From IMG/VR virus record IMGVR_UViG_3300029305_009261: 56,987 nt of DNA. One strand, 5' to 3'. Position 1 is the stretch's first letter, and every line of letters starts with the position of its first letter. The notes beneath the pieces are model-generated. The model worked only from the letters and a program-made list of their open reading frames with translations. It was not told the origin of the DNA and ran no database searches. Below, one piece after another: positions 45,513 to 56,641 of the stretch. The stretch is from an uncultured virus (IMG/VR IMGVR_UViG_3300029305_009261) (Duplodnaviria > Heunggongvirae > Uroviricota > Caudoviricetes). A program made the position numbers and the translations under genes.

Positions 45513-45585
45513 CGGCCCTTACCGGACTTGAACCGATACCAATGGAGTCAAAGTCCATTGCACTAACCAGTTATGCTAAAGGGCT
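45513..45585 (-). tRNA. tRNA-Gln(UUG)
   Basis: Loop CTTTGAC. Confidence 0.9.
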
Positions 45586-45590
45586 ATAAG

Positions 45591-45662
45591 CAGACGAGGA
45601 CAGATTTGAACTGTCGACTGAACTTTCAGAGAGTCCTGTGTTACCAATTACACCACTCGCCT
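45591..45662 (-). tRNA. tRNA-Gln(CUG)
   Basis: Loop CTCTGAA. Confidence 0.85.
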
Positions 45663-45666
45663 ATAG

Positions 45667-45739
45667 AGCTGATGACGAGATTCGAACTCGTATATCCCGG
45701 TTTTGCAGACCGGAGCCTTTCCGTATTGGCTACATCAGC
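45667..45739 (-). tRNA. tRNA-Cys(GCA)
   Basis: Loop CTGCAAA. Confidence 0.9.
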
Positions 45740-45743
45740 ATAG

Positions 45744-45828
45744 CGTTTGCGGAGGGATTCGAACCCTCGGTGCTGTTACACACACTTCCTTAGCAGGGAA
45801 GTACCATAAACCACTCGGACACGCAAAC
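45744..45828 (-). tRNA. tRNA-Ser(GCU)
   Basis: Loop CTGCTAA, long variable arm. Confidence 0.9.
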
Positions 45829-45865
45829 ATATATATATATAAAGTTATTGTTATATAGCAATAAA

Positions 45866-45952
45866 CGCTTACGACAGGATTCGAACCTGTGAGGCTTTAT
45901 AGGCCCACCTGATTTCCAATCAGGCTCCTTAATCCATCTCGGTCACGTAAGC
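45866..45952 (-). tRNA. tRNA-Ser(GGA)
   Basis: Loop TTGGAAA, long variable arm. Confidence 0.9.
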
Positions 45953-45958
45953 ATATAG

Positions 45959-46045
45959 CGGTACATATAGGACTCGAACCTATAAAGCTTTTTACGGCTA
46001 TGCCAGTTTTCGAGGCTGGTGCCTTTCCAGTTAGGCTAATGTACC
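45959..46045 (-). tRNA. tRNA-Ser(CGA)
   Basis: Loop CTCGAAA, long variable arm. Confidence 0.85.
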
Positions 46046-46052
46046 AAATAAG

Positions 46053-46192
46053 CGATAGATTAGGGATTCGAACCCCAATGCCGATACGAGCCGACTATAA
46101 CGGACGCCTTTTTACTCCTACGGAGCAACCAATCTCCGTTGTCTTAAACTACGGTTTTCGGGACCGATGCAATACCATTCTGCCAACCTACC
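46053..46192 (-). tRNA. 140-nt Ser(CGA)-like tRNA with ~73-nt variable region
   Basis: Acceptor GGTAGGT/ATCTATC-G, D arm, loop CCCGAAA, T arm TGGGG-TTCGAAT-CCCTA. Confidence 0.65.
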
Positions 46193-46202
46193 ATTTTTCA
46201 CA

Positions 46203-46247
46203 TAAAAAATAGAGCTATCATAAGATTATACCTCTTACAATAGCTCC
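46203..46247 (-). terminator. intrinsic terminator (putative attenuator) before the Ser/Cys/Gln/Arg cluster
   Basis: GAGCTATTGTAAGA-loop-TCTTATGATAGCTC followed by TATTTTTT. Confidence 0.75.
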
Positions 46248-46299
46248 GTATAAAAACGAGAAATATTGCTAATACAACAAAACGTTAGTAGTTTTGTTG

Positions 46300-46428
46300 T
46301 CAAGAATAATATAAACATATGATTATAGATTTTTTGTATTTAGTTGCACGGCAAATAGAGTCACTCTGAGAAGACTGACTTTGACATCTACACTGTGAAC
46401 TTCTTGAAATTATAATCATAGTTTTCAT
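46300..46428 (-). CDS. putative leader peptide rich in Ser/Gln/Cys/Arg
   Basis: AAAGGA RBS; MKTMIIISRSSQCRCQSQSSQSDSICRATKYKKSIIICLYYS. Confidence 0.7.
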   Translation of the reverse strand: MKTMIIISRSSQCRCQSQSSQSDSICRATKYKKSIIICLYYS

Positions 46429-46452
46429 TGTTTTAGTTTCCTTTCTTTAGCA

Positions 46453-46884
46453 TTATATTGATAATTCGATATTTTCTTTATTTTTTATGTTTTCGTGTAG
46501 TTCTGCTAAGGATTTTGGGACACCTTTTATAGTCCATTCTTCTGGTAAAAACCGAAGAAAAACTTCTGCAAGTTCTTGCTCTTCGTAAAGACAATTATAG
46601 GAATTTACGTCGAGATAATTTGGAGTAGAATCCTCATAATCCACATAATCATCCATATCAGGAAAAACATTTCGGATAAAATAGTCTTTGTCTTTTATTG
46701 GAGTGTAAAAACTAAACTCAAAATAAAGACCATTATACCTTACTTCTATTTCATAAAAGTCATTTTCATACTCTTTTTGTTTTTCTTTGTTATTCTTAAA
46801 AATTTCATACCATACAGATTTTTCTGTTTTGTGTAAGAGGATAATTTCTTTTCTTGAACGCAAATGATTTATTAAAGTTTCCAA
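46453..46884 (-). CDS. hypothetical protein
   Basis: AGGAGG RBS, TTG start. Confidence 0.65.
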   Translation of the reverse strand: METLINHLRSRKEIILLHKTEKSVWYEIFKNNKEKQKEYENDFYEIEVRYNGLYFEFSFYTPIKDKDYFIRNVFPDMDDYVDYEDSTPNYLDVNSYNCLYEEQELAEVFLRFLPEEWTIKGVPKSLAELHENIKNKENIELSI

Positions 46885-46956
46885 TTAAGTTTCTCCTCCT
46901 AATAGTGTTTTTCTGTCATAGTTATGATAAAATTAAAGTTTTGCAATAATCTTAAG

Positions 46957-47034
46957 TACCCCTTGCAGGAGTCGAACCTGCAGAAAGAACTGCGGTTCTG
47001 AGCCGCAGGTGTATGCCATTTCCACCAAAGGGGC
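46957..47034 (-). tRNA. tRNA-Leu(CAG), short variable arm
   Basis: Loop CTCAGAA. Confidence 0.85.
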
Positions 47035-47038
47035 ATAA

Positions 47039-47125
47039 TCTCCCGACTGGGACTTGAACCCAGAGGTTTGTGGTTGCCCGTCCTGCGTCCTTAGCGCAGC
47101 GCCTATGCCATTCGGCTACCGGGAG
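47039..47125 (-). tRNA. tRNA-Leu(AAG)
   Basis: Stem CTGCG/CGCAG, loop CTAAGGA. Confidence 0.85.
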
Positions 47126-47129
47126 AAAA

Positions 47130-47211
47130 TACACATGACGAGATTTGAACTCGTATGGATTGCTCCCATAGGGTTTGAGCCTACTACGTCTGCCAGTTCC
47201 GTCACATGTGC
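47130..47211 (-). tRNA. tRNA-Leu(CAA)
   Basis: Loop CTCAAAC. Confidence 0.9.
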
Positions 47212-47212
47212 G

Positions 47213-47300
47213 TACACCCAGAGGGGGTCGAACCCTCACCCTACTTTAATTTCGGAACGGAGCTTAAATCCGTCGTGTCTTCCTGTTCCACCATGGGTGC
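47213..47300 (-). tRNA. tRNA-Leu(UAA)
   Basis: Loop TTTAAGC. Confidence 0.9.
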
Positions 47301-47354
47301 ATATTTTGTTTTATTAAGTTGTCTAAGGTTACATAATCGTAAGAGTCGCAACAT
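47241..47354 (-). CDS. putative Leu leader peptide reading into tRNA-Leu(UAA)
   Basis: MLRLLRLCNLRQL... with AAAGGACGGGTG upstream. Confidence 0.65.
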   Translation of the reverse strand: MLRLLRLCNLRQLNKTKYAPMVEQEDTTDLSSVPKLK

Positions 47355-47384
47355 ATTTTGCACCCGTCCTTTCTTATTTTTTTT

Positions 47385-47933
47385 TTATTGTTGTTGTTGT
47401 ACTAATTCTACAAAATTATATGGAATGATATAAATATAGTCAACTTGTGTAACTCCTAGTATTTGTACTTTATTGTCTTCGATTGGGAGTTTACAAGTAG
47501 AAATCATCATAACTTCTTCGCCTAATGGAACATTGAGTAATAATTTACTTCCATTACTAGTAGTTCTTCTTTGACCATCCCATTCATAAACGATATGTAA
47601 TCGTTCACTTTCTCCATGTCTTTTTAAAAGAGCTACATCAATAAGTTTTACCGGATATATTTCTTCTTGATTGTTTTGTAACACCTCTAACCATCGCATA
47701 TATTCATTTTTCTTACAAATTTTCGATGGGAAATAGATAAAAGTAATCCCTATAATAATGGAAATTATAATAGTTCCTACTAATTCAGAAGGGGTTGTTA
47801 TTGCACTTCCTATTGCAAGGATAATACCTAATAAACCAAGGCCACGAAAGACATTCATAATAAACTTTATAATTTTGGCTTCTTGTTTTTTTGACTGAAT
47901 CATCAACTTACGTTCTTCCGGATTAAGTTTCAT
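47385..47933 (-). CDS. 2-TM membrane protein
   Basis: AGGAG RBS. Confidence 0.65.
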   Translation of the reverse strand: MKLNPEERKLMIQSKKQEAKIIKFIMNVFRGLGLLGIILAIGSAITTPSELVGTIIISIIIGITFIYFPSKICKKNEYMRWLEVLQNNQEEIYPVKLIDVALLKRHGESERLHIVYEWDGQRRTTSNGSKLLLNVPLGEEVMMISTCKLPIEDNKVQILGVTQVDYIYIIPYNFVELVQQQQ

Positions 47934-47954
47934 GAAATTTTGACAGGCTCCTTT

Positions 47955-48482
47955 CTAAGAAGAAAACTTCTTTTTATCATTCTTTGTTTTTTCTTTTAAT
48001 CGAATAATATTAAAAAACGAAACAGCTAATATCATTATGTCAAAAAATGATGACACATATAATCCAATAGAAAAATCATGAATAAACCAAAGTATCATAT
48101 TAAAACATATTACATATCGTAACGATTGTGCTGATTTCAATATATAAGAACAAGTCGTATATATAACACCAGCTAATATAGGTAAGATACCGATAAATCC
48201 ATTTTTATTAAGAGATAGTCCTAGAACAACCAAAATTACGGCAAATAAGCCATTAATAATTGGTGTGTTCTTATTTTTTGCGGTTAAATAATTTCGAAAT
48301 CCGGCAATTGCATTAGAAACTGCTGCTGAATAACCACCAATAAATAGACATGCAATGAAGTTAAACAAACAGTCGCAAATTTGGACTAATAACATTTTGT
48401 CTTTCTTTTTTGCAAAGGTGCTATACGCTAAAAACGAACAACCAATAGCCGAAAAAATATTTGCTAATATTACCACAGACAA
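47955..48482 (-). CDS. YgjV-like inner membrane protein
   Basis: Multi-TM; K...L..Q, GGYSA...N....RN, W..HD. Confidence 0.7.
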   Translation of the reverse strand: MSVVILANIFSAIGCSFLAYSTFAKKKDKMLLVQICDCLFNFIACLFIGGYSAAVSNAIAGFRNYLTAKNKNTPIINGLFAVILVVLGLSLNKNGFIGILPILAGVIYTTCSYILKSAQSLRYVICFNMILWFIHDFSIGLYVSSFFDIMILAVSFFNIIRLKEKTKNDKKKFSS

Positions 48483-48508
48483 TCTCCTTGTATTTATTTA
48501 TCGGTGAA

Positions 48509-48589
48509 AGGCAGGACTAGGAGTCGAACCTAGTATCTCAACGGGTTATGAGCCCGGAATGGTTTATGTATCCGTTCCACTCTCCTGCA
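48509..48589 (-). tRNA. initiator-type tRNA-Met(CAU) with enlarged D loop
   Basis: GGG/CCC anticodon stem, loop CTCATAA, 1-72 mismatch. Confidence 0.7.
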
Positions 48590-48591
48590 AG

Positions 48592-48664
48592 TACCAGAAA
48601 ACAGGTTTGAACTGTTGACATTGGTCATATGAGGACCATGCTCTACCAACTGAGCTATTCTGGT
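48592..48664 (-). tRNA. tRNA-Met/Ile2(CAU)
   Basis: Loop CTCATAT. Confidence 0.85.
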
Positions 48665-48726
48665 ATAAAAACCGGTAATGACTATGCCAAAACCGGGGGT
48701 TGTATCTACTCGTGGTAGTACAAGTG

Positions 48727-48797
48727 AGCCGATAATAGGAATCGAACCTACATCAACTGTTTACGACACAGCCGCCCTACCGTTGGGCTATATCGGC
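48727..48797 (-). tRNA. tRNA-Thr(CGU)
   Basis: Loop GTCGTAA. Confidence 0.85.
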
Positions 48798-48829
48798 AAA
48801 TATCCATATTAAAGTAGTATGGAGATATT

Positions 48830-49174
48830 TTAAAATTGATATAACATAACCTCAAAAACTATCATACTACCAAAAAGAATAGATAAAAGTATTCCGAGTT
48901 TATAAATATTATATATTATCGGATTAAACATTTCAGAGGGGTTATTTTTCTTGATAAAAACCCTCTTTCTGGTGCGCAAGCACTTCCCTGCGACAGTATT
49001 GCGATACGTCGTATTATTATATTTATATACAAATGTTGTATTATACAAACCTTTAGTGGTATTTGGTCCATACATAAGATGTTGTATTCCAGTATGTTGA
49101 AAACAATCGGCAATTACGCCTACATGGGTTTTGCGAATGCTAATTATCTGTTTTAAAAAGAAAATCAACATCAC
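48830..49174 (-). CDS. membrane protein
   Basis: ORF between tRNAs; start uncertain. Confidence 0.55.
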   Translation of the reverse strand: MMLIFFLKQIISIRKTHVGVIADCFQHTGIQHLMYGPNTTKGLYNTTFVYKYNNTTYRNTVAGKCLRTRKRVFIKKNNPSEMFNPIIYNIYKLGILLSILFGSMIVFEVMLYQF

Positions 49175-49244
49175 TATGCAAACAACAAAAGTTAAAATAT
49201 ACTCGAATATAAACCAACCTCTCTTTATGAAAATTTGTTGTTAA

Positions 49245-49316
49245 AGCCTCATGTGTGAATCGAACACACGATAACTGGGTTACAAATCCAGCGCACTACC
49301 ACTGTGCTAATGAGGC
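49245..49316 (-). tRNA. tRNA-Thr(UGU)
   Basis: Loop TTTGTAA. Confidence 0.9.
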
Positions 49317-49319
49317 AAA

Positions 49320-49601
49320 TTATTTCTTTTTTGTATTTTTTATAAACATAATAAAGAAGAATATAGTTAAAGCAAATGGAATTCCAACAAACATTATTGT
49401 TAAAACTATAGCCCCGGGAGTTAAAAGAACAGCAAGAACCTGTCCAAACTCATCTACAGGGGAGAGTAAATTTTTAACCACGTTAATGGTCATTGGGATG
49501 AATTCTTTTCCAAGAGATATCGTTGTAATACCCAAAAATAAGCTAACAACAAAATAACAAAATGTCTTAATATTGGATTTATTATCTTTGTCAGAATTCA
49601 C
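49320..49601 (-). CDS. small membrane protein
   Basis: AGGAG RBS, GTG start. Confidence 0.6.
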   Translation of the reverse strand: MNSDKDNKSNIKTFCYFVVSLFLGITTISLGKEFIPMTINVVKNLLSPVDEFGQVLAVLLTPGAIVLTIMFVGIPFALTIFFFIMFIKNTKKK

Positions 49602-49632
49602 AATTTATTCTCCTTATACTTATGTTATTAAA

Positions 49633-49704
49633 TACCGCTAAAAAGAATCGAACTTTCATCCTCTGGTTCGTAGCCAGATACTCTATCCATTAAGCTATAG
49701 CGGT
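49633..49704 (-). tRNA. tRNA-Arg(ACG)
   Basis: Loop CTACGAA. Confidence 0.9.
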
Positions 49705-49823
49705 AAAGCATGGGTGTTAGGACTTGAACCCAAAACTCTGAGGTTGGAGCTCAGCATGTTGCCAATTACACCACACCCACATATTGTTTTATGAGGTTTA
49801 GTCCATCGCCATCGTTTTGTCAT
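49695..49823 (-). CDS. putative Trp/Arg/Thr leader peptide reading through tRNA-Trp
   Basis: AAAGGAG RBS; MTKRWRWTKPHKT... Confidence 0.65.
   Translation of the reverse strand: MTKRWRWTKPHKTICGCGVIGNMLSSNLRVLGSSPNTHALPL
49709..49780 (-). tRNA. tRNA-Trp(CCA)
   Basis: Loop CTCCAAC. Confidence 0.9.
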
Positions 49824-49968
49824 AGTAGTTATCTCCTTTCTTCTTGAATTGTTTTAACAATTTACAACTGCCACAATGATTTCTGTTTTTGCAGAACCAA
49901 CAATTATCCGTATCCAACCAAAACCATCTTGGTGGTTGTGGTCGTTGTTTTCTTTTTGCTTTTCCCAT
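49798..49968 (-). CDS. small basic Cys-rich protein
   Basis: MGKAKRK...CWFC...CGSC with AAGGA RBS. Confidence 0.6.
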   Translation of the reverse strand: MGKAKRKQRPQPPRWFWLDTDNCWFCKNRNHCGSCKLLKQFKKKGDNYYDKTMAMD

Positions 49969-49997
49969 ATTGACATTCCTTTTTATATTATAGCCAG

Positions 49998-50071
49998 TAC
50001 GCCCGGTCAGATTCGAACTGACAATCACTGCTTATAAGGCCAGCCGCAACGTACCACATCACCTCGGGCGC
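49998..50071 (-). tRNA. atypical tRNA-Ile(UAU)
   Basis: Perfect acceptor and T arm, loop CTTATAA, irregular D arm and bulged anticodon stem. Confidence 0.7.
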
Positions 50072-50110
50072 TTATTTTATAAGAACCTCTGGTATTCGTA
50101 TTCGTTTCAT
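50072..50110 (-). CDS. putative Ile(AUA) leader peptide
   Basis: AGGAG RBS; MKRIRIPEVLIK, all three Ile codons ATA; stop codon abuts the tRNA 5' end. Confidence 0.7.
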   Translation of the reverse strand: MKRIRIPEVLIK

Positions 50111-50265
50111 ACTTTATCTCCTATTTATTATCGGTTTTTATTTTTCTTTGGACATTCGCATTTGCTATAATAATCGCATTTGGAACATTTGCATTTCTTA
50201 CACCAGTATGAAATTATTTTTCCAATAATACAATGTTTTAACAAGTGAATGTCTCCTTAGTTTTT

Positions 50266-50493
50266 TTAGTATTTTCCCCATGTTAAAGAATTAAAATGGG
50301 AAGTTGTTAGCTTTTTATAATCACAGTCTTTAAGTAAGATATCATTATGCCTACGGATTTGACGATTGTATAATTTCTTACAACGTCGATTGCCTTCTTT
50401 CACTTCTCCTTGTAAAGTAGTTGCATTTTTCTTACTTTTTTGCCAGTTATGTCTTTTGGTGTGAGCATTCCCGGAAAAAGGTTTTTGTTGCAT
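50266..50493 (-). CDS. small basic protein
   Basis: AGGAGG RBS. Confidence 0.6.
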   Translation of the reverse strand: MQQKPFSGNAHTKRHNWQKSKKNATTLQGEVKEGNRRCKKLYNRQIRRHNDILLKDCDYKKLTTSHFNSLTWGKY

Positions 50494-50520
50494 AAAACTA
50501 CCTCCTAAAAACTGTTTTAG

Positions 50521-50593
50521 TTGGGACTGACGGATTTGAACCGACGACCACCTCCGTATCAGAGAGGCACTCTACCAACTGAGTTAAATCCCA
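50521..50593 (-). tRNA. tRNA-Ile(GAU)
   Basis: Loop CTGATAC. Confidence 0.9.
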
Positions 50594-50597
50594 ATAA

Positions 50598-50671
50598 AGC
50601 ATCATACCGGATTCGAACCGGCGTCATTCCTCTTCGGCAAAGAGGTGCCATAGCCATTAGGCGAATGATGC
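50598..50671 (-). tRNA. tRNA-Gly(GCC)
   Basis: Loop TTGCCGA. Confidence 0.9.
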
Positions 50672-50677
50672 ATAATA

Positions 50678-50749
50678 AGCGGATAAAGGGAATCGAACCC
50701 TCATCTTCAGAGTGGAAGTCTGATATCATAGCCGTTAGACCATACCCGC
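50678..50749 (-). tRNA. tRNA-Gly(UCC)
   Basis: Loop CTTCCAC. Confidence 0.9.
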
Positions 50750-50900
50750 ATAAGTAATAACACATGAAATAGTATATAATTTCTTGAAGTGCCTTAGTCC
50801 TGCTTGGAAGGTCCCAAGATGTCCAGTGGACATCTGTTATGGGAGGACCGAAGTGGTAACGCAGACGGCGTGTTATCCGCTGACACTACACATGCATATT

Positions 50901-51045
50901 ATATCGCTAACCTTATAATGACGGATAATTTCACATGCGTATGCGAACCTTCAGAGCCGTCCTAGCCTACGCTGTTCTTTTGTCCGTTATTCAGCCCTGC
51001 AGTGCCTTACGGTGGCATAGGTTGTCTTGCTTCGGTTAGCAATAT
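50901..51045 (-). ncRNA. unidentified structured RNA
   Basis: GC-richer, ORF-free; ends pair (ATATTGCTAACC/GGTTAGCGATAT) with G-U only on the minus strand. Confidence 0.5.
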
Positions 51046-51048
51046 AAA

Positions 51049-51123
51049 TGATTCCAGTGGGACTTGAACCCAACATTTTAGCCTTGAAAGGGCTACGTCC
51101 TGACCGATTTAGACGATGGAACC
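51049..51123 (-). tRNA. tRNA-Glu(UUC)
   Basis: Loop CTTTCAA. Confidence 0.9.
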
Positions 51124-51127
51124 GCAA

Positions 51128-51200
51128 TAGTCTCTACGGGAATTGAACCCAGTATTTACTCCTTGAGAGGGAGTCGTCATAACCATTCGACCAAGAGACC
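51128..51200 (-). tRNA. tRNA-Glu(CUC)
   Basis: Loop CTCTCAA. Confidence 0.9.
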
Positions 51201-51203
51201 ATA

Positions 51204-51692
51204 TTATGATTTCTTAACAACAATATCTCGAAGATATCCACAAGATTTTACATAGGTTTTTACATAAGAAAAACCACAATTTAATAATGCAGATTTTGAT
51301 GCAAAATTTTCTGGATGGACAGTGGCTAAAAGAATATCATAACTCGGGCATTCTTTAAGTGCAAAATTGATAAGTTTTTTCGCAATTCCTTGGTTTCTAT
51401 ATTCGGGAAGTACCATTAAACGTCCAAGTTCAACAACTTTTTCATTGTTAAGTTCTAATTGTTTTGCACTTTCTTCAAATTCATGTGGATGAAAGAATAA
51501 ACCTACTGCGCCAATTAAATAATTATCTTTGAATATGCCATAAAAATGTGTCCATTCTATATCAAAGAAATGTTGTTTTGAAATAGAGTCTATAGGAAGC
51601 CAATATTCTTTATTTGATAAAGAGCTCTCTATTTTTTGAATTAGTAAATCCAATTGGGCTTTGTCAGATAAAAATATTGGTCTAATTTCCAT
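51204..51692 (-). CDS. GNAT N-acetyltransferase
   Basis: V.PEYRNQGIA, V.P.N.AS......GF. Confidence 0.85.
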   Translation of the reverse strand: MEIRPIFLSDKAQLDLLIQKIESSLSNKEYWLPIDSISKQHFFDIEWTHFYGIFKDNYLIGAVGLFFHPHEFEESAKQLELNNEKVVELGRLMVLPEYRNQGIAKKLINFALKECPSYDILLATVHPENFASKSALLNCGFSYVKTYVKSCGYLRDIVVKKS

Positions 51693-51752
51693 AAATCACT
51701 CCTGATTATTTTATATGAGAACGCTTCCGTATGATGACAGACGATAGGTGTT

Positions 51753-52097
51753 TTAATACAATGCAGTACTATGCTCATAATTATAAAGCTCTTTTGCATC
51801 ATAAAATGGTTGTTCTTTACGCAAAGCATTTGCATAACTATTTTCTACAAGGAAGTTTACTGCTTCTGCATTTTCTTCATACCATGTTTCTCCAAAAGCA
51901 TCTTTTACTTTTTTGATAAGACATTCCTGTGCTTGATACAAATCTATTTGATTCTCAATAGCGTCTATAACCTCACGAATAATGAATTTTATTGCTTTCG
52001 AGCTACCCTTAATTTCGAATCTGGCATTTAATGCACTTTCGTATTTTACTGGGTTAGGAACTTCATCAAATGATGTAAGCATAGCATTCAACCTCAC
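51753..52097 (-). CDS. hypothetical protein, paralog family D
   Basis: Paralog of 42436..42750. Confidence 0.65.
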   Translation of the reverse strand: MRLNAMLTSFDEVPNPVKYESALNARFEIKGSSKAIKFIIREVIDAIENQIDLYQAQECLIKKVKDAFGETWYEENAEAVNFLVENSYANALRKEQPFYDAKELYNYEHSTALY

Positions 52098-52127
52098 TTA
52101 ATATAGAAATTGTTTTAATTACATCAA

Positions 52128-52388
52128 CAGGAAACTTTTTCATAAACTCTTCCAAAGTTGCAGTTTGGTGTTCTTGATACTTTTTTTGCTGTATGTTTCC
52201 CAAATAATGTTTTTTTTATTTTTATCATATCAACCGGAAACGAATTTACAATATCAGATTAGCAGTCTGGTTGTTAATTAAGTTGCTGTATGTTTCCAAG
52301 ATATATAAGTTTTTTACATACACATGAAGCGATTATACTTGGCAGTTTAAAAGACTGTTGTTTAATAGATTGCTGTTTGCTTCACATA
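52128..52388 (-). ncRNA. three tandem ACAGCAA-motif RNAs carrying anticodon-stem-loop mimics (Cys, Ser, Lys)
   Basis: Each has a closing stem, ACAGCAA and a hairpin with a 7-nt loop CTGCAAC / CTGCTAA / CTTTTAA. Confidence 0.65.
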
Positions 52389-52394
52389 TGTAAG

Positions 52395-52469
52395 TCGGAA
52401 TGACACGACTCGAACGTGCAATGTCTCGGTCCCAAGCCGAGCGGATTAGCCAAATTATCCTACATCCCG
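52395..52469 (-). tRNA. tRNA-Pro(UGG)
   Basis: Loop CTTGGGA. Confidence 0.9.
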
Positions 52470-52475
52470 AAATGA

Positions 52476-52547
52476 TGCTTGTATTGAGATTCGAACTCAA
52501 ATCAGTCAGATTAAGAGTCTGCTATTTTACCATTAAACTACACAAGC
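52476..52547 (-). tRNA. tRNA-Lys(CUU)
   Basis: Loop CTCTTAA. Confidence 0.9.
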
Positions 52548-52551
52548 GTAG

Positions 52552-52624
52552 TGCGCCATTTGGGGCTCGAACCCAAGACCTATCGGTTAAAAGCCGATTA
52601 CTCTACCAACTGAGTTAATGACGC
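52552..52624 (-). tRNA. tRNA-Lys(UUU)
   Basis: Loop CTTTTAA. Confidence 0.9.
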
Positions 52625-52628
52625 TTAT

Positions 52629-52664
52629 TTACTTAGGTTTTCGTGTTTTACGTTTTCGTTTCAT
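52629..52664 (-). CDS. putative Lys/Pro leader peptide
   Basis: AAAAGGA RBS; MKRKRKTRKPK, stop 4 nt before tRNA-Lys. Confidence 0.65.
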   Translation of the reverse strand: MKRKRKTRKPK

Positions 52665-52679
52665 AATAATTCTTCCTTT

Positions 52680-52943
52680 TTAATTGTTTTTCTTATGATA
52701 TATAAATACCAAAACAGCAAATGTTGTATTCAATATCATATCTACGATTGCTCCAATATAGAGAATTAACTCTTGATTTGTTGTAAATAAATAAATTACC
52801 CAACAAAAGATTCCAATCAATGATAAAATAGTTGAGCCAAGGCTATAATCAGAGCTTGATTTTGTTTTTATAAGTTTGATTATTTTTGGAAAATATTCCA
52901 TGTAAACAATAATGCAATATGTAATATAAAACAGCTTTCCCAT
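52680..52943 (-). CDS. PQ-loop/SemiSWEET-like small membrane protein
   Basis: FPKIIK..KTKSS.D.S, W..Y, 3 TMs. Confidence 0.7.
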   Translation of the reverse strand: MGKLFYITYCIIVYMEYFPKIIKLIKTKSSSDYSLGSTILSLIGIFCWVIYLFTTNQELILYIGAIVDMILNTTFAVLVFIYHKKNN

Positions 52944-52962
52944 ATAAGCTCCTGATAACTAT

Positions 52963-53481
52963 TTAATTTTTACCTCTAATTGCTATGTTTAAGTTTAATA
53001 AAGGGCTACCATCTGTCTGAAATAATGGGACGCAGATATTAGCTGCATACTGTCTGGACATAACGACATTTCCTCTTGCAACTGTTGGTGGAGTAATGTC
53101 AATCAATCGGTTCTGTATACTAAAAATAGTTGCTGCATTTCCCATAATCATATTTCCCAATTCGGAAATTGCACTCATTGCCATTTCAGTTAATTCCGGA
53201 ATTTCAAAGCCCATCATCATTTTACTGGCAAGTAGTTTTGCACTCTCCTCATTGATTTCTAAAATAACTTGACCTTCTAGTTGTCCGGTAACTCCAAGCA
53301 TTATCAAAACTGCATTGTCGGTAAAAGAAGTGTCTTTGATACAAGGTTTTCCAACTTTAGATTTAATCTGACTGACAGTTTCAATGATATTCATTGCTGC
53401 AGTTAAAAATGGGTTGATGGTATTTACGTCTACAACAGAAGTCTGTGACTTCTGATTGTCATGGATACTCGACTGTGGCAT
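52963..53481 (-). CDS. cheX: chemotaxis phosphatase CheX
   Basis: INPF, GVTG...G, SA.SELGNMI.GNA, DITPP. Confidence 0.9.
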   Translation of the reverse strand: MPQSSIHDNQKSQTSVVDVNTINPFLTAAMNIIETVSQIKSKVGKPCIKDTSFTDNAVLIMLGVTGQLEGQVILEINEESAKLLASKMMMGFEIPELTEMAMSAISELGNMIMGNAATIFSIQNRLIDITPPTVARGNVVMSRQYAANICVPLFQTDGSPLLNLNIAIRGKN

Positions 53482-53558
53482 GTAAATTCTCCATTTCTTC
53501 TGTATTTTATTTTGTAGGGTAAATGATTCTTGTGCCTGTAAGAATACTTTATCCTAAG

Positions 53559-53633
53559 CGACTCTAACGGGATTCGAACCCGTGGTCTCCGGCGTGACAG
53601 ACCGGCGCTTTAAGCCAGCTAAGCTATAGAGCC
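53559..53633 (-). tRNA. tRNA-Asp(GUC)
   Basis: Loop CTGTCAC. Confidence 0.9.
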
Positions 53634-53751
53634 ATATATAGGGAGTTGACGGGACTCCCCGGCACCTTATGTTGTCATCATTAGGTGTGTAATAAATAAG
53701 CGTCTGGTAAGTGTCCTGTGTTGTCGTACTACAACTTATTTTTTACAAAAA

Positions 53752-53833
53752 TCCGTGAGGTTGGACTCGAACCAACGATGTTTCTTTGTGGGGGTTTTAC
53801 AGACCCTTGTCTTCGCCGCTAGACTACTCACGG
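53752..53833 (-). tRNA. tRNA-Tyr(GUA)
   Basis: Loop CTGTAAA; C1-G72. Confidence 0.9.
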
Positions 53834-53872
53834 TCAATTAAAATCATTTACTTTGCTTTTGTTGAAAACAAA

Positions 53873-53957
53873 TCCGTGGAGTAGGACTTGAACCTACAAG
53901 AGCCGAAGCCATCGATTTTACAGACCGAACCGCTACCAGTTACGGGACTATCCACGG
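53873..53957 (-). tRNA. tRNA-Tyr(GUA)
   Basis: Loop CTGTAAA; C1-G72. Confidence 0.9.
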
Positions 53958-53999
53958 GAATTTCTTTTCGTAATAATAATAATAATAATCAGAATCCAT
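53940..53999 (-). CDS. putative Tyr/Asp leader peptide overlapping the tRNA-Tyr 5' end
   Basis: AAAGGAG RBS; MDSDYYYYYYEKKFPWIVP. Confidence 0.75.
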   Translation of the reverse strand: MDSDYYYYYYEKKFPWIVP

Positions 54000-54048
54000 A
54001 ATATTTATCTCCTTTGTTTATTTTTTTGTAGTTCATTAAGAACTTAAT

Positions 54049-54118
54049 GTGACCTAAGAGAATCGAACTCTTGAGAACGGAGCCACAATCCGCCGTTTTA
54101 CCACTAAACTAAAGCCAC
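54049..54118 (-). tRNA. tRNA-His(GUG)
   Basis: Loop TTGTGGC; G-1:C73. Confidence 0.9.
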
Positions 54119-54120
54119 AG

Positions 54121-54193
54121 TGCAGGATGAGAGGTTCGAACTCCCGACTTCCAACTTGTAAAGATGACACTCTCCCGGCTGAGTTAATCCTGC
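54121..54193 (-). tRNA. tRNA-Val(UAC)
   Basis: Loop TTTACAA; weak anticodon stem. Confidence 0.8.
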
Positions 54194-54308
54194 ATTCTTA
54201 AGCACCTTAAACTTAATACGCTATATATTAACCCTCTTTATAGATAAGGTGACGAGAGTTATACAGTTCTAGGAGATAACCTTATCATTTATCATCCTAA
54301 GGTTTTAG

Positions 54309-54380
54309 TGGACACGATGGGATTCGAACCCAATCTTTCTTCTTGCAAGGAAGACGCTTTCCCAGTTAAGCTATCGGCCC
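54309..54380 (-). tRNA. tRNA-Ala(UGC)
   Basis: Loop CTTGCAA; G3-U70. Confidence 0.9.
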
Positions 54381-54384
54381 ATAG

Positions 54385-54457
54385 TAGGAATTGGAAGGAA
54401 TCGAACCCTCGTCTCCTGTCTCCACGACAGGCGCTATATCCATTAAGCTACAACCCT
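54385..54457 (-). tRNA. atypical tRNA-like gene (undetermined anticodon)
   Basis: Normal D and T arms; anticodon hairpin CCTGTC-GTGGA-GACAGG lacks U33; bulged acceptor. Confidence 0.6.
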
Positions 54458-54471
54458 ATAGATTTTTTTGA

Positions 54472-54647
54472 TGCGGATATTGAGGATTCGAACACTCGAA
54501 GACATTTCATAAAACAACATTGTCTGTCCATAGACTCCGGATTTTCTATGTTAGATATTGTTGTAGTTATTAACAATACCAAACGCTGTTTTCCTACTAC
54601 TGTCAGCTACTCACCGTAGCCTGCTTTGGCCGCTTGCATATCACCGC
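54472..54647 (-). ncRNA. 176-nt tRNA-like RNA with ~100-nt insertion in the variable region
   Basis: GCGG/CCGC-A acceptor, class II-type D arm, GGCTAC-GGTGA-GTAGCT hairpin, GTTCGAATC T loop. Confidence 0.6.
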
Positions 54648-54694
54648 TTATTATATTATCACAAGTAATGAACAAGGCATCACCTGTAATAAAA

Positions 54695-54774
54695 TGCCTC
54701 GTGTTCGAGTCGAACGAACTTCTCTGGATTTTCAGTCCAGCGCATGTATTAATTACCGAATCTGCTTACGAGGC
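54695..54774 (-). tRNA. tRNA-Phe(GAA), enlarged D loop
   Basis: Loop CTGAAAA. Confidence 0.85.
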
Positions 54775-54824
54775 TTGGTAAAGTCTGTTTCTTCTGCTTT
54801 ACCAAAACTAAATCGTTTCTTCAT
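54753..54824 (-). CDS. putative Phe leader peptide overlapping the tRNA-Phe 5' end
   Basis: AAAGGA RBS; MKKRFSFGKAEETDFTKPRKQIR. Confidence 0.6.
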   Translation of the reverse strand: MKKRFSFGKAEETDFTKPRKQIR

Positions 54825-55103
54825 TTTTCAAAGTTCCTTTCCAGTTAAAATTAAAAAGCTGTAACTATACGATTATCTTCATAAAAGAATTCATATTGGC
54901 TTTTTGTTTGTTTGACATTTAAAAGTTTTCCACGAAAGGAATATCTTTTTCCATTTTGAGAATATTTGAAGCCAATATTTTCATTTTTTATCATAGAAAA
55001 ATTTAACTTCATAATGATATCCTCCATATAATTATTTTTATCTCTTATCTCCTGCTTAAATTAGGGGTGCCTGTTCCATAGAAACAGGAGATTTTTGATA
55101 AAG

Positions 55104-55143
55104 CGCTGCGAGTTGGGCTCGAACCAACAACCTACCGGTTAAC
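55104..55143 (-). pseudogene. 3' half of a tRNA-Asn starting at the anticodon
   Basis: GTTAACCGGTAGGTTGTTGGTTCGAGCCCAACTCGCAGCG; no matching 5' half found. Confidence 0.7.
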
Positions 55144-55828
55144 CTATGGTTGATTGGGTTATTTCTGTGTTTATAATAGTTTCTTGAGTTATCAAGCCTT
55201 CATGGATTTCTCTATGACAGTTTGCACAAACACAAATACATTTGTCTAATTCTACCTTTAACCGTTCCCATGATTTTGTAGTTCCAGCATGAGAAAAACC
55301 AAAGTCTTTTTCTTCTGGGTCTTTATGATGGAATTCAAGAGCCCCTATGCATTTATTATATCCACAAAGAAGGCATTTGCCACCTTTGTATTCTACAGCC
55401 ATTTCCTTCAACTTTCTGCGTCTCTTAGTAACGCTTTTAACGTTTCTTGCTCGACGCTTTTGCAATCTATAGCTATCTGTTGTTTTGTGAGGGCTCCAAT
55501 ATAAATTAGAAGCAGACAAGTTGTCTGGATTTTCATCTACAAATAAAACAAAGGGTAGATTTTTAGGATTTTCTAAAAAATTTTCTGCAACAGCCCTATG
55601 TAATATGATGCTTTTGCGTTGTCGTCTTTTGCCAAGGCTAACGTGAAAAACATAATAAGATGTTCCCCTATTTTCCGAAGCATTGATTTTATATGTTTTT
55701 AAAATTTTCTTAGAGTTTTTTCTTCTAATGTGGCCTAAATTACTAATTTCGTAATTTTCGTAAATATTATTTTGATATATTAAAGGTTTCCATTCTTCTT
55801 GAAAATCAATAATACCATTCATCTCCAA
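55139..55828 (-). CDS. NUMOD4/HNH homing-endonuclease-like protein
   Basis: EEWK...YEISN.G.IR, HR.VA..F; C-terminal C..CGY...LEFHH.DP..K...CANCHREIH. Confidence 0.85.
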   Translation of the reverse strand: MEMNGIIDFQEEWKPLIYQNNIYENYEISNLGHIRRKNSKKILKTYKINASENRGTSYYVFHVSLGKRRQRKSIILHRAVAENFLENPKNLPFVLFVDENPDNLSASNLYWSPHKTTDSYRLQKRRARNVKSVTKRRRKLKEMAVEYKGGKCLLCGYNKCIGALEFHHKDPEEKDFGFSHAGTTKSWERLKVELDKCICVCANCHREIHEGLITQETIINTEITQSTIG

Positions 55829-55868
55829 TCATTTTGTCTTTAGTCGATGGGTGGTGCCTACACCCAAA

Positions 55869-55939
55869 CGGGCCGGGAAAGAGTTGAACTTTCCTATCCA
55901 GCTTAACAGGCTGGCGTTCTACCGATGAACTACCGGTCC
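55869..55939 (-). tRNA. tRNA-Asn(GUU)
   Basis: Loop CTGTTAA. Confidence 0.9.
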
Positions 55940-55983
55940 AAAACATTGTAATATCGAGCTACGAATCCATATTTTTATGTAAT

Positions 55984-56059
55984 AAAAAATCGCCTATTAT
56001 CAGCAACCACAAAGAAAATTTTCTCTATCCTTGTTGGTTATTTGCTGTTATAGACGATT
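55984..56059 (-). terminator. long hairpin plus U-tract upstream of the first tRNA (putative attenuator)
   Basis: AATCGTCTAT...ATAGGCGATT-TTTT with internal CAGCAA/TTGCTG pairing. Confidence 0.55.
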
Positions 56060-56128
56060 GCAATTTACCTATGTATAAAAGGCATTCTATGATGTTTTTT
56101 ATAGTACTTGTGCCTGTAAGCATCTATT

Positions 56129-56308
56129 TCAACATCGTAACAATCGTCTTTCGAGTGTTTGTTCTAACCCTCTATGTTCTTCTGTAATGACGGAATTATC
56201 CCAATAACAATCGAGACTAGGGGCATAAGGGCGAACGAAACTAAACATATTAAAATTATATGTTTTCGCTGCAGCCTGATTCTGTTTTGCCACTAATGAC
56301 TTCATCAT
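56129..56308 (-). CDS. 59-aa first ORF of the tRNA operon (putative master leader)
   Basis: AAAGGA RBS; MMKSLVAKQNQAAAKTYNFNMFSFV...; uses all 20 amino acids. Confidence 0.55.
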   Translation of the reverse strand: MMKSLVAKQNQAAAKTYNFNMFSFVRPYAPSLDCYWDNSVITEEHRGLEQTLERRLLRC

Positions 56309-56355
56309 GGTTTTTAATTCCTTTCATTTTATTTGTAAGTTTTTTATCTTACACT

Positions 56356-56385
56356 TATTAGCTACTTTTTGGTTTAAGTTCTCGG
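56356..56385 (-). promoter_or_regulatory. element-specific promoter-like motif, copy 8 (head of tRNA operon)
   Basis: CCGAGAACTTAAACCAAAAAGTAGCTAATA. Confidence 0.8.
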
Positions 56386-56414
56386 TAAATTCTTACCGAA
56401 GTGTTTTAAATAAA

Positions 56415-56530
56415 TAAAAAAAGAAAGTTTCTGATTTTCCGCTGACCATTTTCCCCTAAAATCATCCCCCGACGCTTTTAGAAAAACATTACATATAGGT
56501 CAGACGAAAGACAGGCACTTCCTTCATCTA
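56415..56530 (-). ncRNA. putative sigmaA-driven small RNA with an AGUGCCUG-loop hairpin
   Basis: Follows a strong promoter; AGATGAAGGA-AGTGCCTG-TCTTTCGTCT hairpin, second CTGACC/GGTCAG stem, U-rich end. Confidence 0.55.
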
Positions 56531-56535
56531 CAGGT

Positions 56536-56564
56536 AGTATATCACACTTTAAAAAGAATGTCAA
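56536..56564 (-). promoter_or_regulatory. sigmaA promoter
   Basis: TTGACA-17 bp-TATACT with extended TG and A/T-rich UP element. Confidence 0.8.
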
Positions 56565-56641
56565 CACTTTTTTTAAAATTTTTTTTTATTTTTTTAAAGA
56601 TTTTTTTGCTATAATAGTTGGTCACAATCCAATCCAAAAAA

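What the first reader, a model, noticed from the sequence alone, without database searches (positions are those of the whole stretch)
47330..54824. Leaders share a (K)-R(CGA)-X-R-X template with swappable sensor codons
Seen: ATG AAA CGA ATA CGA ATA (Ile), ATG AAA CGA AAA CGT AAA (Lys), ATG ACA AAA CGA TGG CGA TGG (Trp), ATG AAG AAA CGA TTT AGT TTT (Phe), ATG TTG CGA CTC TTA CGA TTA (Leu). A CGA codon directly precedes the cognate codon in all five. Known: CGA is decoded slowly via I34:A wobble. Inference: a reusable sensor module in which a slow P-site CGA sharpens stalling at the next codon and only X is reprogrammed.
Basis: partly seen in the sequence, partly recalled or inferred. Interest (0 to 1): 0.75.

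Follow-up and report, generated by a model that had tools for sequence, protein, structure and literature searches.

The report
Shared CGA template in tRNA leaders
A large gut phage puts tiny translated leader genes in front of several of its tRNA genes, each rich in the codon that tRNA reads and built on one shared Lys-Arg(CGA) template; the same template stands before tRNA-Lys genes of other phages, which points to an undescribed way of sensing tRNA supply.

Summary
On the minus strand, five Shine-Dalgarno-led mini-ORFs start 39-54 nt 5' of tRNA-Leu, Trp, Ile(UAU), Lys and Phe (ATG at 47354, 49823, 50110, 52664, 54824). In each, CGA directly precedes the first cognate codon. A sixth leader (Tyr, MDSDYYYYYY) has no Arg. 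Six of 9 SD-led mini-ORFs next to tRNAs hold 2 or more cognate codons, and 0 of 20,000 anticodon shuffles reach that. Nine of 10 Arg codons in the leaders are CGA, against 20% in the phage's long ORFs and 5% in Lachnospira, the likely host genus. There, 7 of 9 Arg codons not fixed by the search pattern are CGA (background 7-14%), while Lys codons switch between AAA and AAG. So the refutation test ("CGA not conserved in homologues") fails for the Lys leader. No terminator hairpin lies between any leader and its tRNA. I read these as tRNA-supply sensors derived from a Lys-leader family, with CGA selected at codon level. Its kinetic role is plausible from yeast and Salmonella data but untested here. 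Reuse of the template for other amino acids was seen only in this window.

The parts
52629..52664 (-). Lys leader mini-ORF MKRKRKTRKPK*. CGA at 52658-52656 and 52643-52641, CGT at 52652-52650. The stop ends 4 nt before tRNA-Lys(UUU). AGGA at 52677-52674.
   Evidence: It belongs to a family found in six IMG/VR contigs.
52394..52624 (-). tRNA-Lys(UUU), tRNA-Lys(CUU) and tRNA-Pro(UGG), directly 3' of the Lys leader.
   Evidence: ARAGORN; Rfam. The leader holds AAA x5, AAG x1 and CCT x1.
50072..50110 (-). Ile leader MKRIRIPEVLIK*. CGA at 50104-50102 and 50098-50096, ATA x3. The stop codon abuts base 1 of tRNA-Ile(UAU). GGAG at 50121-50118.
49997..50071 (-). tRNA-Ile(UAU), which reads ATA.
   Evidence: Rfam 31.3 bits.
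49781..49823 (-). Trp leader MTKRWRWTKPHKTI..., which reads on through tRNA-Trp to 49695. CGA at 49814-49812 and 49808-49806. GGAG at 49836-49833. It overlaps the 3' end of a Cys-rich ORF in another frame.
   Evidence: In contigs of runs X8 and X9 the second TGG is CGG (49805 A>G on the plus strand).
49632..49780 (-). tRNA-Trp(CCA), followed by tRNA-Arg(ACG), the tRNA that reads CGA after A34-to-I editing (general knowledge).
47301..47354 (-). Leu leader MLRLLRLCNLRQLNKTKY..., which reads on into tRNA-Leu(UAA) to 47241. CGA at 47348-47346 and 47339-47337. Leu codons are TTG, CTC, TTA, TTA, CTT, CTT.
46956..47300 (-). Four tRNA-Leu genes (UAA, CAA, AAG, CAG).
47415..47443 (-). Promoter-like site TTGACT-17-TATAAT (11 of 12), about 60 nt 5' of the Leu leader ATG.
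   Evidence: This is a consensus match only.
54775..54824 (-). Phe leader MKKRFSFGKAEETDFTK..., whose ORF ends at 54753 inside tRNA-Phe. CGA at 54815-54813, TTT x3. AGGA at 54837-54834.
54695..54774 (-). tRNA-Phe(GAA) with an enlarged D-loop, not called by ARAGORN.
   Evidence: Rfam tRNA 54703-54766, 30.2 bits, anticodon loop CUGAAAA. The cloverleaf-like fold gives the ends.
53958..53999 (-). Tyr leader MDSDYYYYYYEKKF..., whose ORF ends at 53940 inside tRNA-Tyr. It has the same SD type (GGAGATAA) but no Arg or CGA, so it is the exception to the template.
53873..53957 (-). tRNA-Tyr(GUA), directly 3' of the Tyr leader.

Best explanation
These are real, translated leader mini-ORFs of phage tRNA genes. 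Each sits 31-54 nt 5' of a tRNA gene and is loaded with the codon(s) that this tRNA reads. Ribosome speed on the leader therefore reports the supply of that charged tRNA in the infected cell. Five of the six leaders in the window are variants of one template, M-(x)-K-R(CGA)-X-(R/S)-X. That template descends from a Lys-tRNA leader family (ATG AAA CGA AAR nnn AAA nnn CGA AAR) found in other large phages. In this phage the Lys sensor codons have been replaced by Ile, Trp, Phe or Leu codons. CGA is kept at the codon level, not merely as 'Arg'. The most likely reason is kinetic. CGA is rare in the host, is read only through an I34:A wobble, and is slow. It either waits in the A site or, once in the P site, disturbs decoding of the next codon, which makes the pause at the sensor codon longer and more dependent on tRNA supply. 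The output is not a terminator switch. The leader ends at or inside the tRNA, so I infer that a ribosome running to the end invades the 5' half of the nascent tRNA. A ribosome held at codons 4-9 would instead leave the tRNA free to fold and be cut out, or would shield the precursor 5' end from decay. The result would be more phage tRNA when the cognate tRNA is short. Shown here: the anatomy, the cognate-codon match, the CGA bias, the conservation of the Lys leader, and the absence of attenuator hairpins. Inferred: translation itself, stalling, the role of CGA, and the effect on tRNA output.
For: Cognate match: 6 of 9 SD-led mini-ORFs next to tRNAs have 2-6 cognate codons, and 0 of 20,000 anticodon shuffles reach this. 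Control: in 2.36 Mb of bacterial loci with 40 tRNAs, 0 of 6 such mini-ORFs have 2 or more. CGA bias: 9 of 10 leader Arg codons are CGA, against 20.1% (91 of 453) in 72 long ORFs, where AGA is 45.5%. A preference for A-rich sequence would predict AGA, which is absent from codons 2-9. Host rarity: CGA is 90 of 1,719 Arg codons (5.2%) in long ORFs of 8 Lachnospira loci. The phage's CheX is closest, at 53-54% identity, to Lachnospira. Twelve of these hold a tRNA, and 6 of the 12 are MKRK... mini-ORFs ending at tRNA-Lys (binomial 3e-5 at an assumed 6% Lys share). In them codon 8 is CGA and codon 9 is AAA or AAG in 4 of 6, as in the window. Seven of 9 unforced Arg codons are CGA against a background of 7-14% (4 of 6 if related contigs are counted once, P 0.0045). 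Codons 4 and 9 vary AAA/AAG, and codons 5 and 7 are free. The seven tRNA-Lys genes themselves are diverged, with 17 of 19 stem pairs showing compensatory changes, and no conserved structure involves the leader. Four of 7 leaders have a canonical SD and 2 overlap the stop of an upstream ORF (ATGA). No terminator-like site lies between any leader and its tRNA, and the leaders fold no better than shuffles. Literature: CGA-CGA is a slow pair in the Salmonella hisL reporter (PMC11805395, passages). A P-site CGA I:A pair distorts the A-site mRNA in yeast (bioRxiv 10.1101/755652, passages).
Against: No expression, ribosome or RNA-end data exist for this element, so translation and stalling are inferred. 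The Tyr leader works (if it works) without Arg. The second Arg position is CGT in the Lys leaders of the window and L386, CGG in L385, and Ser AGT in the Phe leader. Codon 3 = CGA in the IMG/VR family was forced by my pattern, so only later codons count. In contigs of two runs that hold relatives, the second Trp codon of the Trp leader is CGG. No change is listed in the CGA codons there, but that table is truncated (106 rows not shown). The strict SD + ATG AAA CGA nnn CGA template lay next to no tRNA in 107 IMG/VR matches. The five other phage loci (116 tRNAs) show no cognate leader except Lys. T5 and six other GenBank phage loci show none. The slow decoding of CGA is documented in yeast and Salmonella, not in Clostridia or in phage-infected cells that carry extra tRNA-Arg(ACG). 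The proposed output (tRNA folding, processing or stability) has no direct support.
Confidence: 0.4

Rival explanations
1. The template is shared by descent only. The leaders are paralogues of the Lys leader. Arg is needed as a basic residue (efficient M-K-R start, or a role of the short basic peptide or nascent chain). CGA is simply the inherited codon, or the only Arg codon that is A-ending and not AGR, and it has no kinetic role.
For: The Ile and Lys leaders differ at 3 bases in 6 codons, and the Lys and Trp leaders share a T-(R)-K-P-x-K tail. The Tyr leader needs no Arg. CGT or CGG occurs at codon 5. Reuse of the template is confined to this phage.
Against: CGA is kept at unforced positions in contigs whose flanks, free codons and tRNA stems have diverged, while the Lys codons flip AAA/AAG. 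Seven of 9 Arg codons are CGA against a 7-14% background. The N-termini of ordinary genes in the window use AGA 7, CGT 3, CGA 2, CGC 1.
Confidence: 0.25
2. CGA is itself a sensor codon. The leaders report two inputs: the cognate tRNA and tRNA-Arg(ICG), which the phage supplies with its own tRNA-Arg(ACG) gene.
For: The Trp leader alternates CGA and TGG and precedes tRNA-Trp followed by tRNA-Arg(ACG). tRNA-Arg(ACG) is present in 4 of the 5 fetched stretches of Lys-leader phages. CGA is 5% of Arg codons in Lachnospira but 20% in the phage.
Against: tRNA-Arg(ACG) is not downstream of the Ile, Lys, Phe or Leu leaders. In the other phages it lies 0.9-2.8 kb from tRNA-Lys.
Confidence: 0.12
3. The conserved ACGAAA repeats are an RNA or DNA motif (a protein or nuclease site, or a promoter element), not codons.
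For: CGAAAR recurs 2-3 times, and in L384 and L386 also in the end of the upstream ORF.
Against: Conservation has a period of three with synonymous AAA/AAG changes. An SD or ATGA coupling is present. The X part changes with the anticodon of the tRNA downstream. The distance to the tRNA varies (31-40 nt) while the spacing inside the ORF is fixed.
Confidence: 0.07
4. Chance: A-rich spacers happen to contain these short ORFs.
For: The spacers are A-rich. When all 131 ATG/GTG/TTG mini-ORFs are scored the excess is modest (14 against 6.3 expected; 24 of 2,000 shuffles reach it).
Against: (see above).
Confidence: 0.03

Closest known systems
Leader peptides of ribosome-mediated transcription attenuators (trpL, hisL, pheL, leuL, thrL; pheM of pheST). 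Names are recalled; the principle is as in the abstracts of PMC1183508 and PMC3082878 seen in the listing.
   Same: A short SD-led ORF with clustered codons cognate to what the downstream genes supply. The ribosome's speed on them is the signal.
   Different: The genes downstream are tRNA genes. No terminator/antiterminator hairpins or U-run are present. The sensor codons start at codon 2-5. The ORF abuts or runs into the tRNA. No Rfam leader family matches.
Inhibitory CGA codon pairs: yeast CGA-CGA and CGA-CCG (bioRxiv 10.1101/755652, passages), and CGA-CGA as a slow pair in the Salmonella hisL 'speedometer' (PMC11805395, passages).
   Same: A CGA read through I:A wobble sits directly 5' of the codon whose decoding is to be slowed. 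In the Salmonella case this happens inside a leader peptide.
   Different: Here CGA is paired with Lys, Ile, Trp, Phe or Leu codons, not CGA or CCG. The element is natural and conserved, not an engineered reporter. No kinetic data exist for these pairs or for this host.
T-box riboswitches (recalled).
   Same: They sense the state of one specific tRNA in cis and control translation-related genes.
   Different: T-boxes bind uncharged tRNA directly by RNA structure, without a ribosome. No T-box or other structured family matches.
Drug-dependent arrest leaders of erm and cat genes, the +X+ (R/K-X-R/K) arrest motif, and stabilisation of ermC mRNA by a stalled ribosome (all recalled, from no call).
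   Same: Very short leaders, R-X-R strings (RIR, RKR, RWR), and an output that can be RNA stability or access rather than termination.
   Different: No drug is involved here as far as can be told, and the variable residue tracks the downstream tRNA.
Phage tRNA arrays as counter-defence against tRNA-cleaving immunity (PMC10264068, PMC11464382, PMC11555353; listings and starts of abstracts only), and the T5 tRNA region.
   Same: Large phage tRNA arrays interspersed with small ORFs, HNH endonucleases and stable RNAs (T5). tRNA-Lys and tRNA-Tyr are among the tRNAs those titles and abstracts concern.
   Different: None of those listings mentions leader ORFs. T5 shows no cognate-codon leader.

Membership tests
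Ribosome-mediated transcription attenuator (trp/his/leu type) | Short translated ORF with its own ribosome-binding site | tested here: met
   AGGA or GGAG 7-12 nt before the ATG in all six leaders. Translation itself is not shown.
Ribosome-mediated transcription attenuator (trp/his/leu type) | Cluster of regulatory codons cognate to the regulated product | tested here: met
   2-6 cognate codons per leader; 0 of 20,000 anticodon shuffles reach the observed count.
Ribosome-mediated transcription attenuator (trp/his/leu type) | Alternative antiterminator/terminator hairpins with a U-run between the leader and the regulated gene | tested here: not met
   None of the 16 terminator-like sites lies between a leader and its tRNA. 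The leader regions are unstructured, with z-scores from -0.09 to +0.53; the Phe stretch scores -1.84, and in its predicted fold the longest helices are the arms of tRNA-Phe, with two short hairpins upstream in the leader. There are 0-4 nt, or an overlap, between ORF and tRNA.
Ribosome-mediated transcription attenuator (trp/his/leu type) | Regulated genes are amino-acid biosynthesis or aaRS genes | tested here: not met
   tRNA genes follow directly.
Rfam leader and riboswitch families (His/Leu/Thr/Trp leaders, T-box) | Match to the covariance model | tested here: not met
   Window 44000-56987 at E<=0.1 gave only tRNA matches and one spurious snoRNA match.
CGA inhibitory codon pair | CGA decoded by tRNA-Arg(ICG) through I:A wobble | tested here: inconclusive
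   The phage encodes tRNA-Arg(ACG). The host's tRNA set and the A34-to-I editing were not examined.
CGA inhibitory codon pair | Slower decoding of the codon 3' of CGA | not testable with these tools
   Needs kinetics, toeprinting or ribosome profiling.
Phage tRNA-Lys leader family (defined here) | ATG AAA CGA AAR nnn AAA nnn CGA AAR, starting 31-40 nt 5' of tRNA-Lys | tested here: met
   The window's Lys leader fits at all constrained codons. L382, L383, L384 and L386 fit fully, and L385 and L354 fit in part.

The most novel reading that the evidence does not exclude
Phage tRNA genes are under ribosome-mediated feedback control. Leader peptides read the infected cell's supply of one charged tRNA, for example after host anticodon nucleases have cut tRNA-Lys or tRNA-Tyr. 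They raise output of the phage's replacement tRNA by deciding whether the nascent tRNA next to them can fold and be processed. A CGA-X codon pair is a portable stall amplifier that lets the same cassette be re-aimed at any amino acid by changing X.
Probability: 0.2. Interest if true: 0.9.

Novelty: new variant of a known kind. Interest (0 to 1): 0.78.

Why it matters
Why phages carry tRNA arrays, and how those arrays are controlled, is an open question. Seven full-text searches listed no paper that describes leader peptides in front of tRNA genes. If these mini-ORFs sense tRNA supply, they would be a new class of leader-peptide control. The regulated product would be the very tRNA being sensed, and there would be no terminator switch. 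That would tie in with recent work on phage tRNAs that replace host tRNAs cut by defence nucleases. The conserved CGA-Lys pairs would also be the first natural, conserved use of a CGA codon pair as a tuning element in bacteria. The cassette is small enough (about 40 nt) to test directly and to reuse as a codon-specific sensor.

Tried and rejected
Close relatives of the window were not found in several searches.
- IMG/VR gave none with the exact Ile-leader string (2 chance hits without tRNAs).
- It gave none with the CheX or 182-aa proteins, or with two tRNA-derived strings.
- GTDB genomes gave none.
- GenBank phages matched only inside tRNAs, or gave one 27%-identity protein hit.

Protein searches with ORFs that overlap leaders (the 42-aa Trp-leader ORF and the antisense 75-aa ORF over the Leu leader) found nothing beyond the window itself.

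Sequencing runs: no RNA holder is listed. Laying contigs of four runs gave only fragments, and the difference table was truncated, so conservation of CGA in close relatives could not be read off.

Classical attenuation was rejected because there are no hairpins. An Rfam family was rejected.

Other genomes:
- T5's tRNA region holds small ORFs but no cognate leader. An 'MKRFRIP' ORF there is the T-arm of tRNA-Trp read in frame.
- Six further GenBank phage loci have no Lys leader.
- In 401 Clostridia genomes, a Lys-leader pattern with free Arg codons matched 4 times, against 7 matches for the reversed control pattern. None lies within 1.5 kb of a tRNA.

The notes of earlier sessions were closed.

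Full report
SETTING

The window has 33% G+C, and nearly all long ORFs lie on the minus strand. Pfam finds NAD synthase, Sir2, an R2K ATP-grasp, a GNAT, a SemiSWEET-like protein, YgjV, CheX, a NUMOD4/HNH endonuclease and ribosomal protein L32. No whole genome is held for it.

ARAGORN tRNA genes, all on the minus strand, between 45342 and 55940. Rfam adds a tRNA at 54703-54766, whose anticodon loop CUGAAAA makes it tRNA-Phe.

The CheX gene has about 40 relatives at 57-95% identity on unnamed metagenome contigs. Below that come CheX proteins of Lachnospira at about 52-55%. The best genome hits are Lachnospira at 53-54%. The six best holders among sequencing runs are faecal metagenomes.

I read this as a large phage, or a similar mobile element, of a Lachnospiraceae host. 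That reading is an inference.

THE OBSERVATION

| Leader | ATG at | Peptide and end | tRNA(s) downstream |
|---|---|---|---|
| Leu | 47354 | MLRLLRLCNLRQLNKTKY, then reads into the tRNA | four tRNA-Leu |
| Trp | 49823 | MTKRWRWTKPHKTI, then reads through the tRNA | tRNA-Trp, then tRNA-Arg(ACG) |
| Ile | 50110 | MKRIRIPEVLIK*, stop abuts the tRNA | tRNA-Ile(UAU) |
| Lys | 52664 | MKRKRKTRKPK*, stop 4 nt before the tRNA | tRNA-Lys(UUU), Lys(CUU), Pro(UGG) |
| Phe | 54824 | MKKRFSFGKAEETDFTK, then reads into the tRNA | tRNA-Phe |

Each leader has AGGA or GGAG 7-12 nt before the ATG, and each starts 39-54 nt before the tRNA.

It has the same GGAGATAA ribosome-binding site as the Ile and Trp leaders but no Arg.

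IS IT MORE THAN CHANCE?

- **Cognate codons.** Of 9 SD-led ATG mini-ORFs that start within 100 nt 5' of the 36 tRNAs, 6 hold 2-6 codons read by the tRNA just downstream. With anticodons shuffled among the tRNAs the mean is 0.70 and the maximum 5. None of 20,000 shuffles reaches 6.
- **Looser count.** Scoring all 131 ATG/GTG/TTG mini-ORFs gives a weaker excess: 14 against 6.3 expected, and 24 of 2,000 shuffles reach it.
- **Bacterial control.** In 160 bacterial loci (2.36 Mb, 40 tRNAs) fetched for other reasons, 0 of 6 such mini-ORFs have 2 or more cognate codons.
- **Tandem CGA-X-CGN-X.** It occurs 5 times on the minus strand and never on the plus strand, against 0.36 expected. Three of the five are leaders.
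- **CGA share.** Nine of the 10 Arg codons in codons 2-9 of the leaders are CGA. In 72 long ORFs CGA is 91 of 453 Arg codons (20.1%) and AGA is 45.5%. At codons 2-6 of those ORFs the counts are AGA 7, CGT 3, CGA 2, CGC 1 (binomial 4e-6, Fisher 6e-4).

A taste for A-rich sequence would predict AGA, which is absent from codons 2-9 of the leaders. If the second CGA of each pair is a copy of the first, the independent count is five leaders, all with CGA.

NO CLASSICAL ATTENUATOR

None of the 16 terminator-like sites lies between a leader and its tRNA. The leader stretches fold no better than shuffles (z from -0.09 to +0.53). The Phe stretch scores -1.84; in its predicted fold the longest helices are the arms of tRNA-Phe, with two short hairpins upstream in the leader. 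There is no room for a hairpin in any case, since the ORFs end 0-4 nt before the tRNA or inside it. Rfam finds no leader or T-box family. A promoter-like site (11 of 12) lies about 60 nt 5' of the Leu leader.

HOMOLOGUES

Close relatives of this phage are not in IMG/VR, GTDB genomes or GenBank phages.

Contigs of four sequencing runs laid on the region gave fragments only.
- In two runs (X8, X9) the second TGG of the Trp leader is CGG (49805 A>G on the plus strand). In X9 the ACA codon is ATA.
- No change is listed in the CGA codons, but 106 rows of that table are not shown, so this is weak.
- One X9 contig matches from tRNA-Trp through the Ile leader and stops at its ATG (50111).
- Another X9 contig replaces the stretch that holds the Tyr leader and both tRNA-Tyr genes with 165 other letters.
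- A further X9 contig matches tRNA-Leu(UAA) but not its flanks.

None has a tRNA within 300 nt, and only 3 have equal X codons, as chance predicts.

A second scan fixed only ATGAAACGA and a T-loop (GTTCRANNC) 68-98 nt downstream. Twelve hold a tRNA, and six of those twelve are mini-ORFs that run up to tRNA-Lys:
- L307/L382: MKRKTKVRKRY, on a complete 310-kb contig
- L317/L383: MKRKSKVRKRNM
- L330/L384: MKRKHKPRKL
- L360/L386: MKRKRKSRKI
- L349/L385: MKRKRIYK*
- L354: MKRKQMRSSST

Together with the window, the codon table reads as follows.

| Codon | Content in the 7 leaders |
|---|---|
| 4 | AAA 4, AAG 3 |
| 5 | free (six different codons) |
| 6 | AAA 5 of 7 |
| 7 | free |
| 8 | CGA 5 of 7 |
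| 9 | AAA 4, AAG 1 |

Of the 9 Arg codons in the six IMG/VR leaders that my pattern did not fix, 7 are CGA, one is CGT, one is CGG and none is AGA. CGA is only 7-14% of Arg codons in long ORFs of those loci. The binomial is 3e-5. Counting related contigs once gives 4 of 6 and P 0.0045.

Further features of this family:
- The tRNA-Lys genes are themselves diverged: 17 of 19 stem pairs show compensatory changes. The consensus fold is the cloverleaf alone, with nothing in the leader.
- Four of the 7 leaders have a canonical SD, two overlap the stop of an upstream ORF as ATGA, and one has neither.
- The distance to the tRNA varies while the spacing inside the ORF is fixed. This fits codons rather than a promoter.

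So the Lys leader is a conserved, phage-borne element, and CGA-AAR pairs are its conserved core. Codon 3 cannot be counted, because the pattern fixed it.

LIMITS OF THE "SWAPPABLE" CLAIM

In the five larger stretches fetched from those phages (116 tRNAs), no mini-ORF except the Lys one, and overlapping frames of it, carries 2 or more cognate codons in a convincing setting. T5's tRNA region and six further GenBank phage loci have none. A Lys-leader pattern with free Arg codons matched 4 times in 401 Clostridia genomes, against 7 for the reversed control, and never near a tRNA.

Re-aiming of the template at Ile, Trp, Phe and Leu is therefore seen only in this window. There the case rests on near-identity: the Ile and Lys leaders differ at 3 bases in their first 6 codons, and the Lys and Trp leaders share a T-(R)-K-P-x-K tail.

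HOW IT MOST LIKELY WORKS

The following is shown: the anatomy, the codon match, the CGA bias and its conservation, and the absence of hairpins.

The following is inferred.
- Ribosomes translate the leaders, and their speed on the sensor codons reflects the supply of the cognate charged tRNA.
- CGA is rare in the likely host genus. It is 5.2% of Arg codons in 8 Lachnospira loci, against 20% in the phage, which brings its own tRNA-Arg(ACG).
- In a Salmonella hisL reporter a CGA-CGA pair behaves as slow (PMC11805395, passages).
- In yeast a P-site CGA, read by an I:A pair, shifts the mRNA and disturbs the A site (bioRxiv 10.1101/755652, passages).
- A kinetic role for CGA just before each sensor codon is therefore reasonable. 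It remains untested, and I cannot tell an A-site wait from a P-site effect.

For the output I propose the following, from the geometry and from recalled ribosome footprint sizes. A ribosome that reaches the end of the leader unfolds the 5' half of the adjacent tRNA. A ribosome held at codons 4-9 leaves the tRNA free to fold and be cut out, or shields the precursor's 5' end. The latter would resemble what stalled ribosomes do for ermC mRNA in Bacillus (recalled). Either way, shortage of the cognate tRNA would raise output of the phage's own copy.

COMPARISON AND NOVELTY

The element works like the leader peptides of amino-acid operons, but it fails two of their defining features: there is no terminator switch, and the genes downstream are tRNAs. 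It is not a T-box.

Seven full-text searches listed no paper on leader ORFs before tRNA genes. Papers on phage tRNAs as counter-defence were seen only as listings and starts of abstracts.

I rate it a new variant of a known kind.

Noticed in passing
window 53940-53999 (-): Tyr leader MDSDYYYYYYEKKFPWIVP*: six consecutive Tyr codons, 42 nt before tRNA-Tyr(GUA). It is the clearest leader of the array and the only one without Arg. In a contig of run X9 this stretch, together with both tRNA-Tyr genes, is replaced by 165 other letters.
   Followed up: partly
window 50750-51048 (-): A 299-nt stretch of about 47% G+C between tRNA-Glu and tRNA-Gly, with no long ORF. It folds at -83.3 kcal/mol (z -2.1; 4 of 200 shuffles fold as well) and has no Rfam match at E<=5. 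It may be a stable RNA like those annotated in T5's tRNA region.
   Followed up: partly
window 54458-54660 (-): A tRNA-like 3' half (T-arm and acceptor end, just 5' of tRNA-Pro), with a possible 5' half about 130-190 nt upstream. Neither ARAGORN nor Rfam calls it. It may be an intron-bearing or split tRNA. The stretch is conserved in a contig of run X8 (6 differences in 232 nt).
   Followed up: no
window 46053-46192 (-) and 48503-48590 (-): The first is an Rfam tRNA match spread over 140 nt (37.4 bits), which ARAGORN calls tRNA-Tyr(AUA) at 46052-46134. It is probably a tRNA with an insertion. The second looks by eye like a tRNA with a CAT anticodon loop and a long insertion, but no tool called it.
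   Followed up: no
window 56536-56919 (-): A ribosomal protein L32 gene (Pfam E 3e-26) is followed by a hairpin and T-run that I read by eye as a terminator and then by the best promoter-like site of the region (TTGACA-17-TATACT, with TG), at the upstream end of the tRNA array. This is either a phage-borne rpmF or the edge of host DNA.
   Followed up: no
window 49798-49970 (-) and about 50113-50229 (-): Small Cys-rich ORFs (CxxC pairs, zinc-ribbon-like) stand directly before the Trp and Ile leaders. The first overlaps the Trp leader by 26 nt in another frame. T5 has a similar Cys-rich ORF before its tRNA-Cys.
   Followed up: no
window 52963-53481 (-): A CheX/CheC-like gene sits inside the tRNA array. 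It is 57-95% identical to about 40 unnamed metagenome proteins and about 52-55% identical to Lachnospira CheX, so it looks like a host-derived chemotaxis phosphatase carried by a phage lineage.
   Followed up: partly
window 55090-55140 and 55139-55828 (-): A NUMOD4/HNH endonuclease ORF lies between tRNA-Asn and a tRNA-like 3' fragment (T-arm GGTTCGAGCCC). This may be a homing endonuclease that has disrupted or flanks a tRNA gene.
   Followed up: no
L384 9750-9824; L384 and L386, upstream of the Lys leader: In L384 ARAGORN calls a CTA-anticodon (amber-reading) tRNA in the array. In both L384 and L386 the Lys leader's ATG overlaps the TGA stop of a small upstream ORF ending ...KRRK*, which itself ends with CGA AAA.
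   Followed up: no
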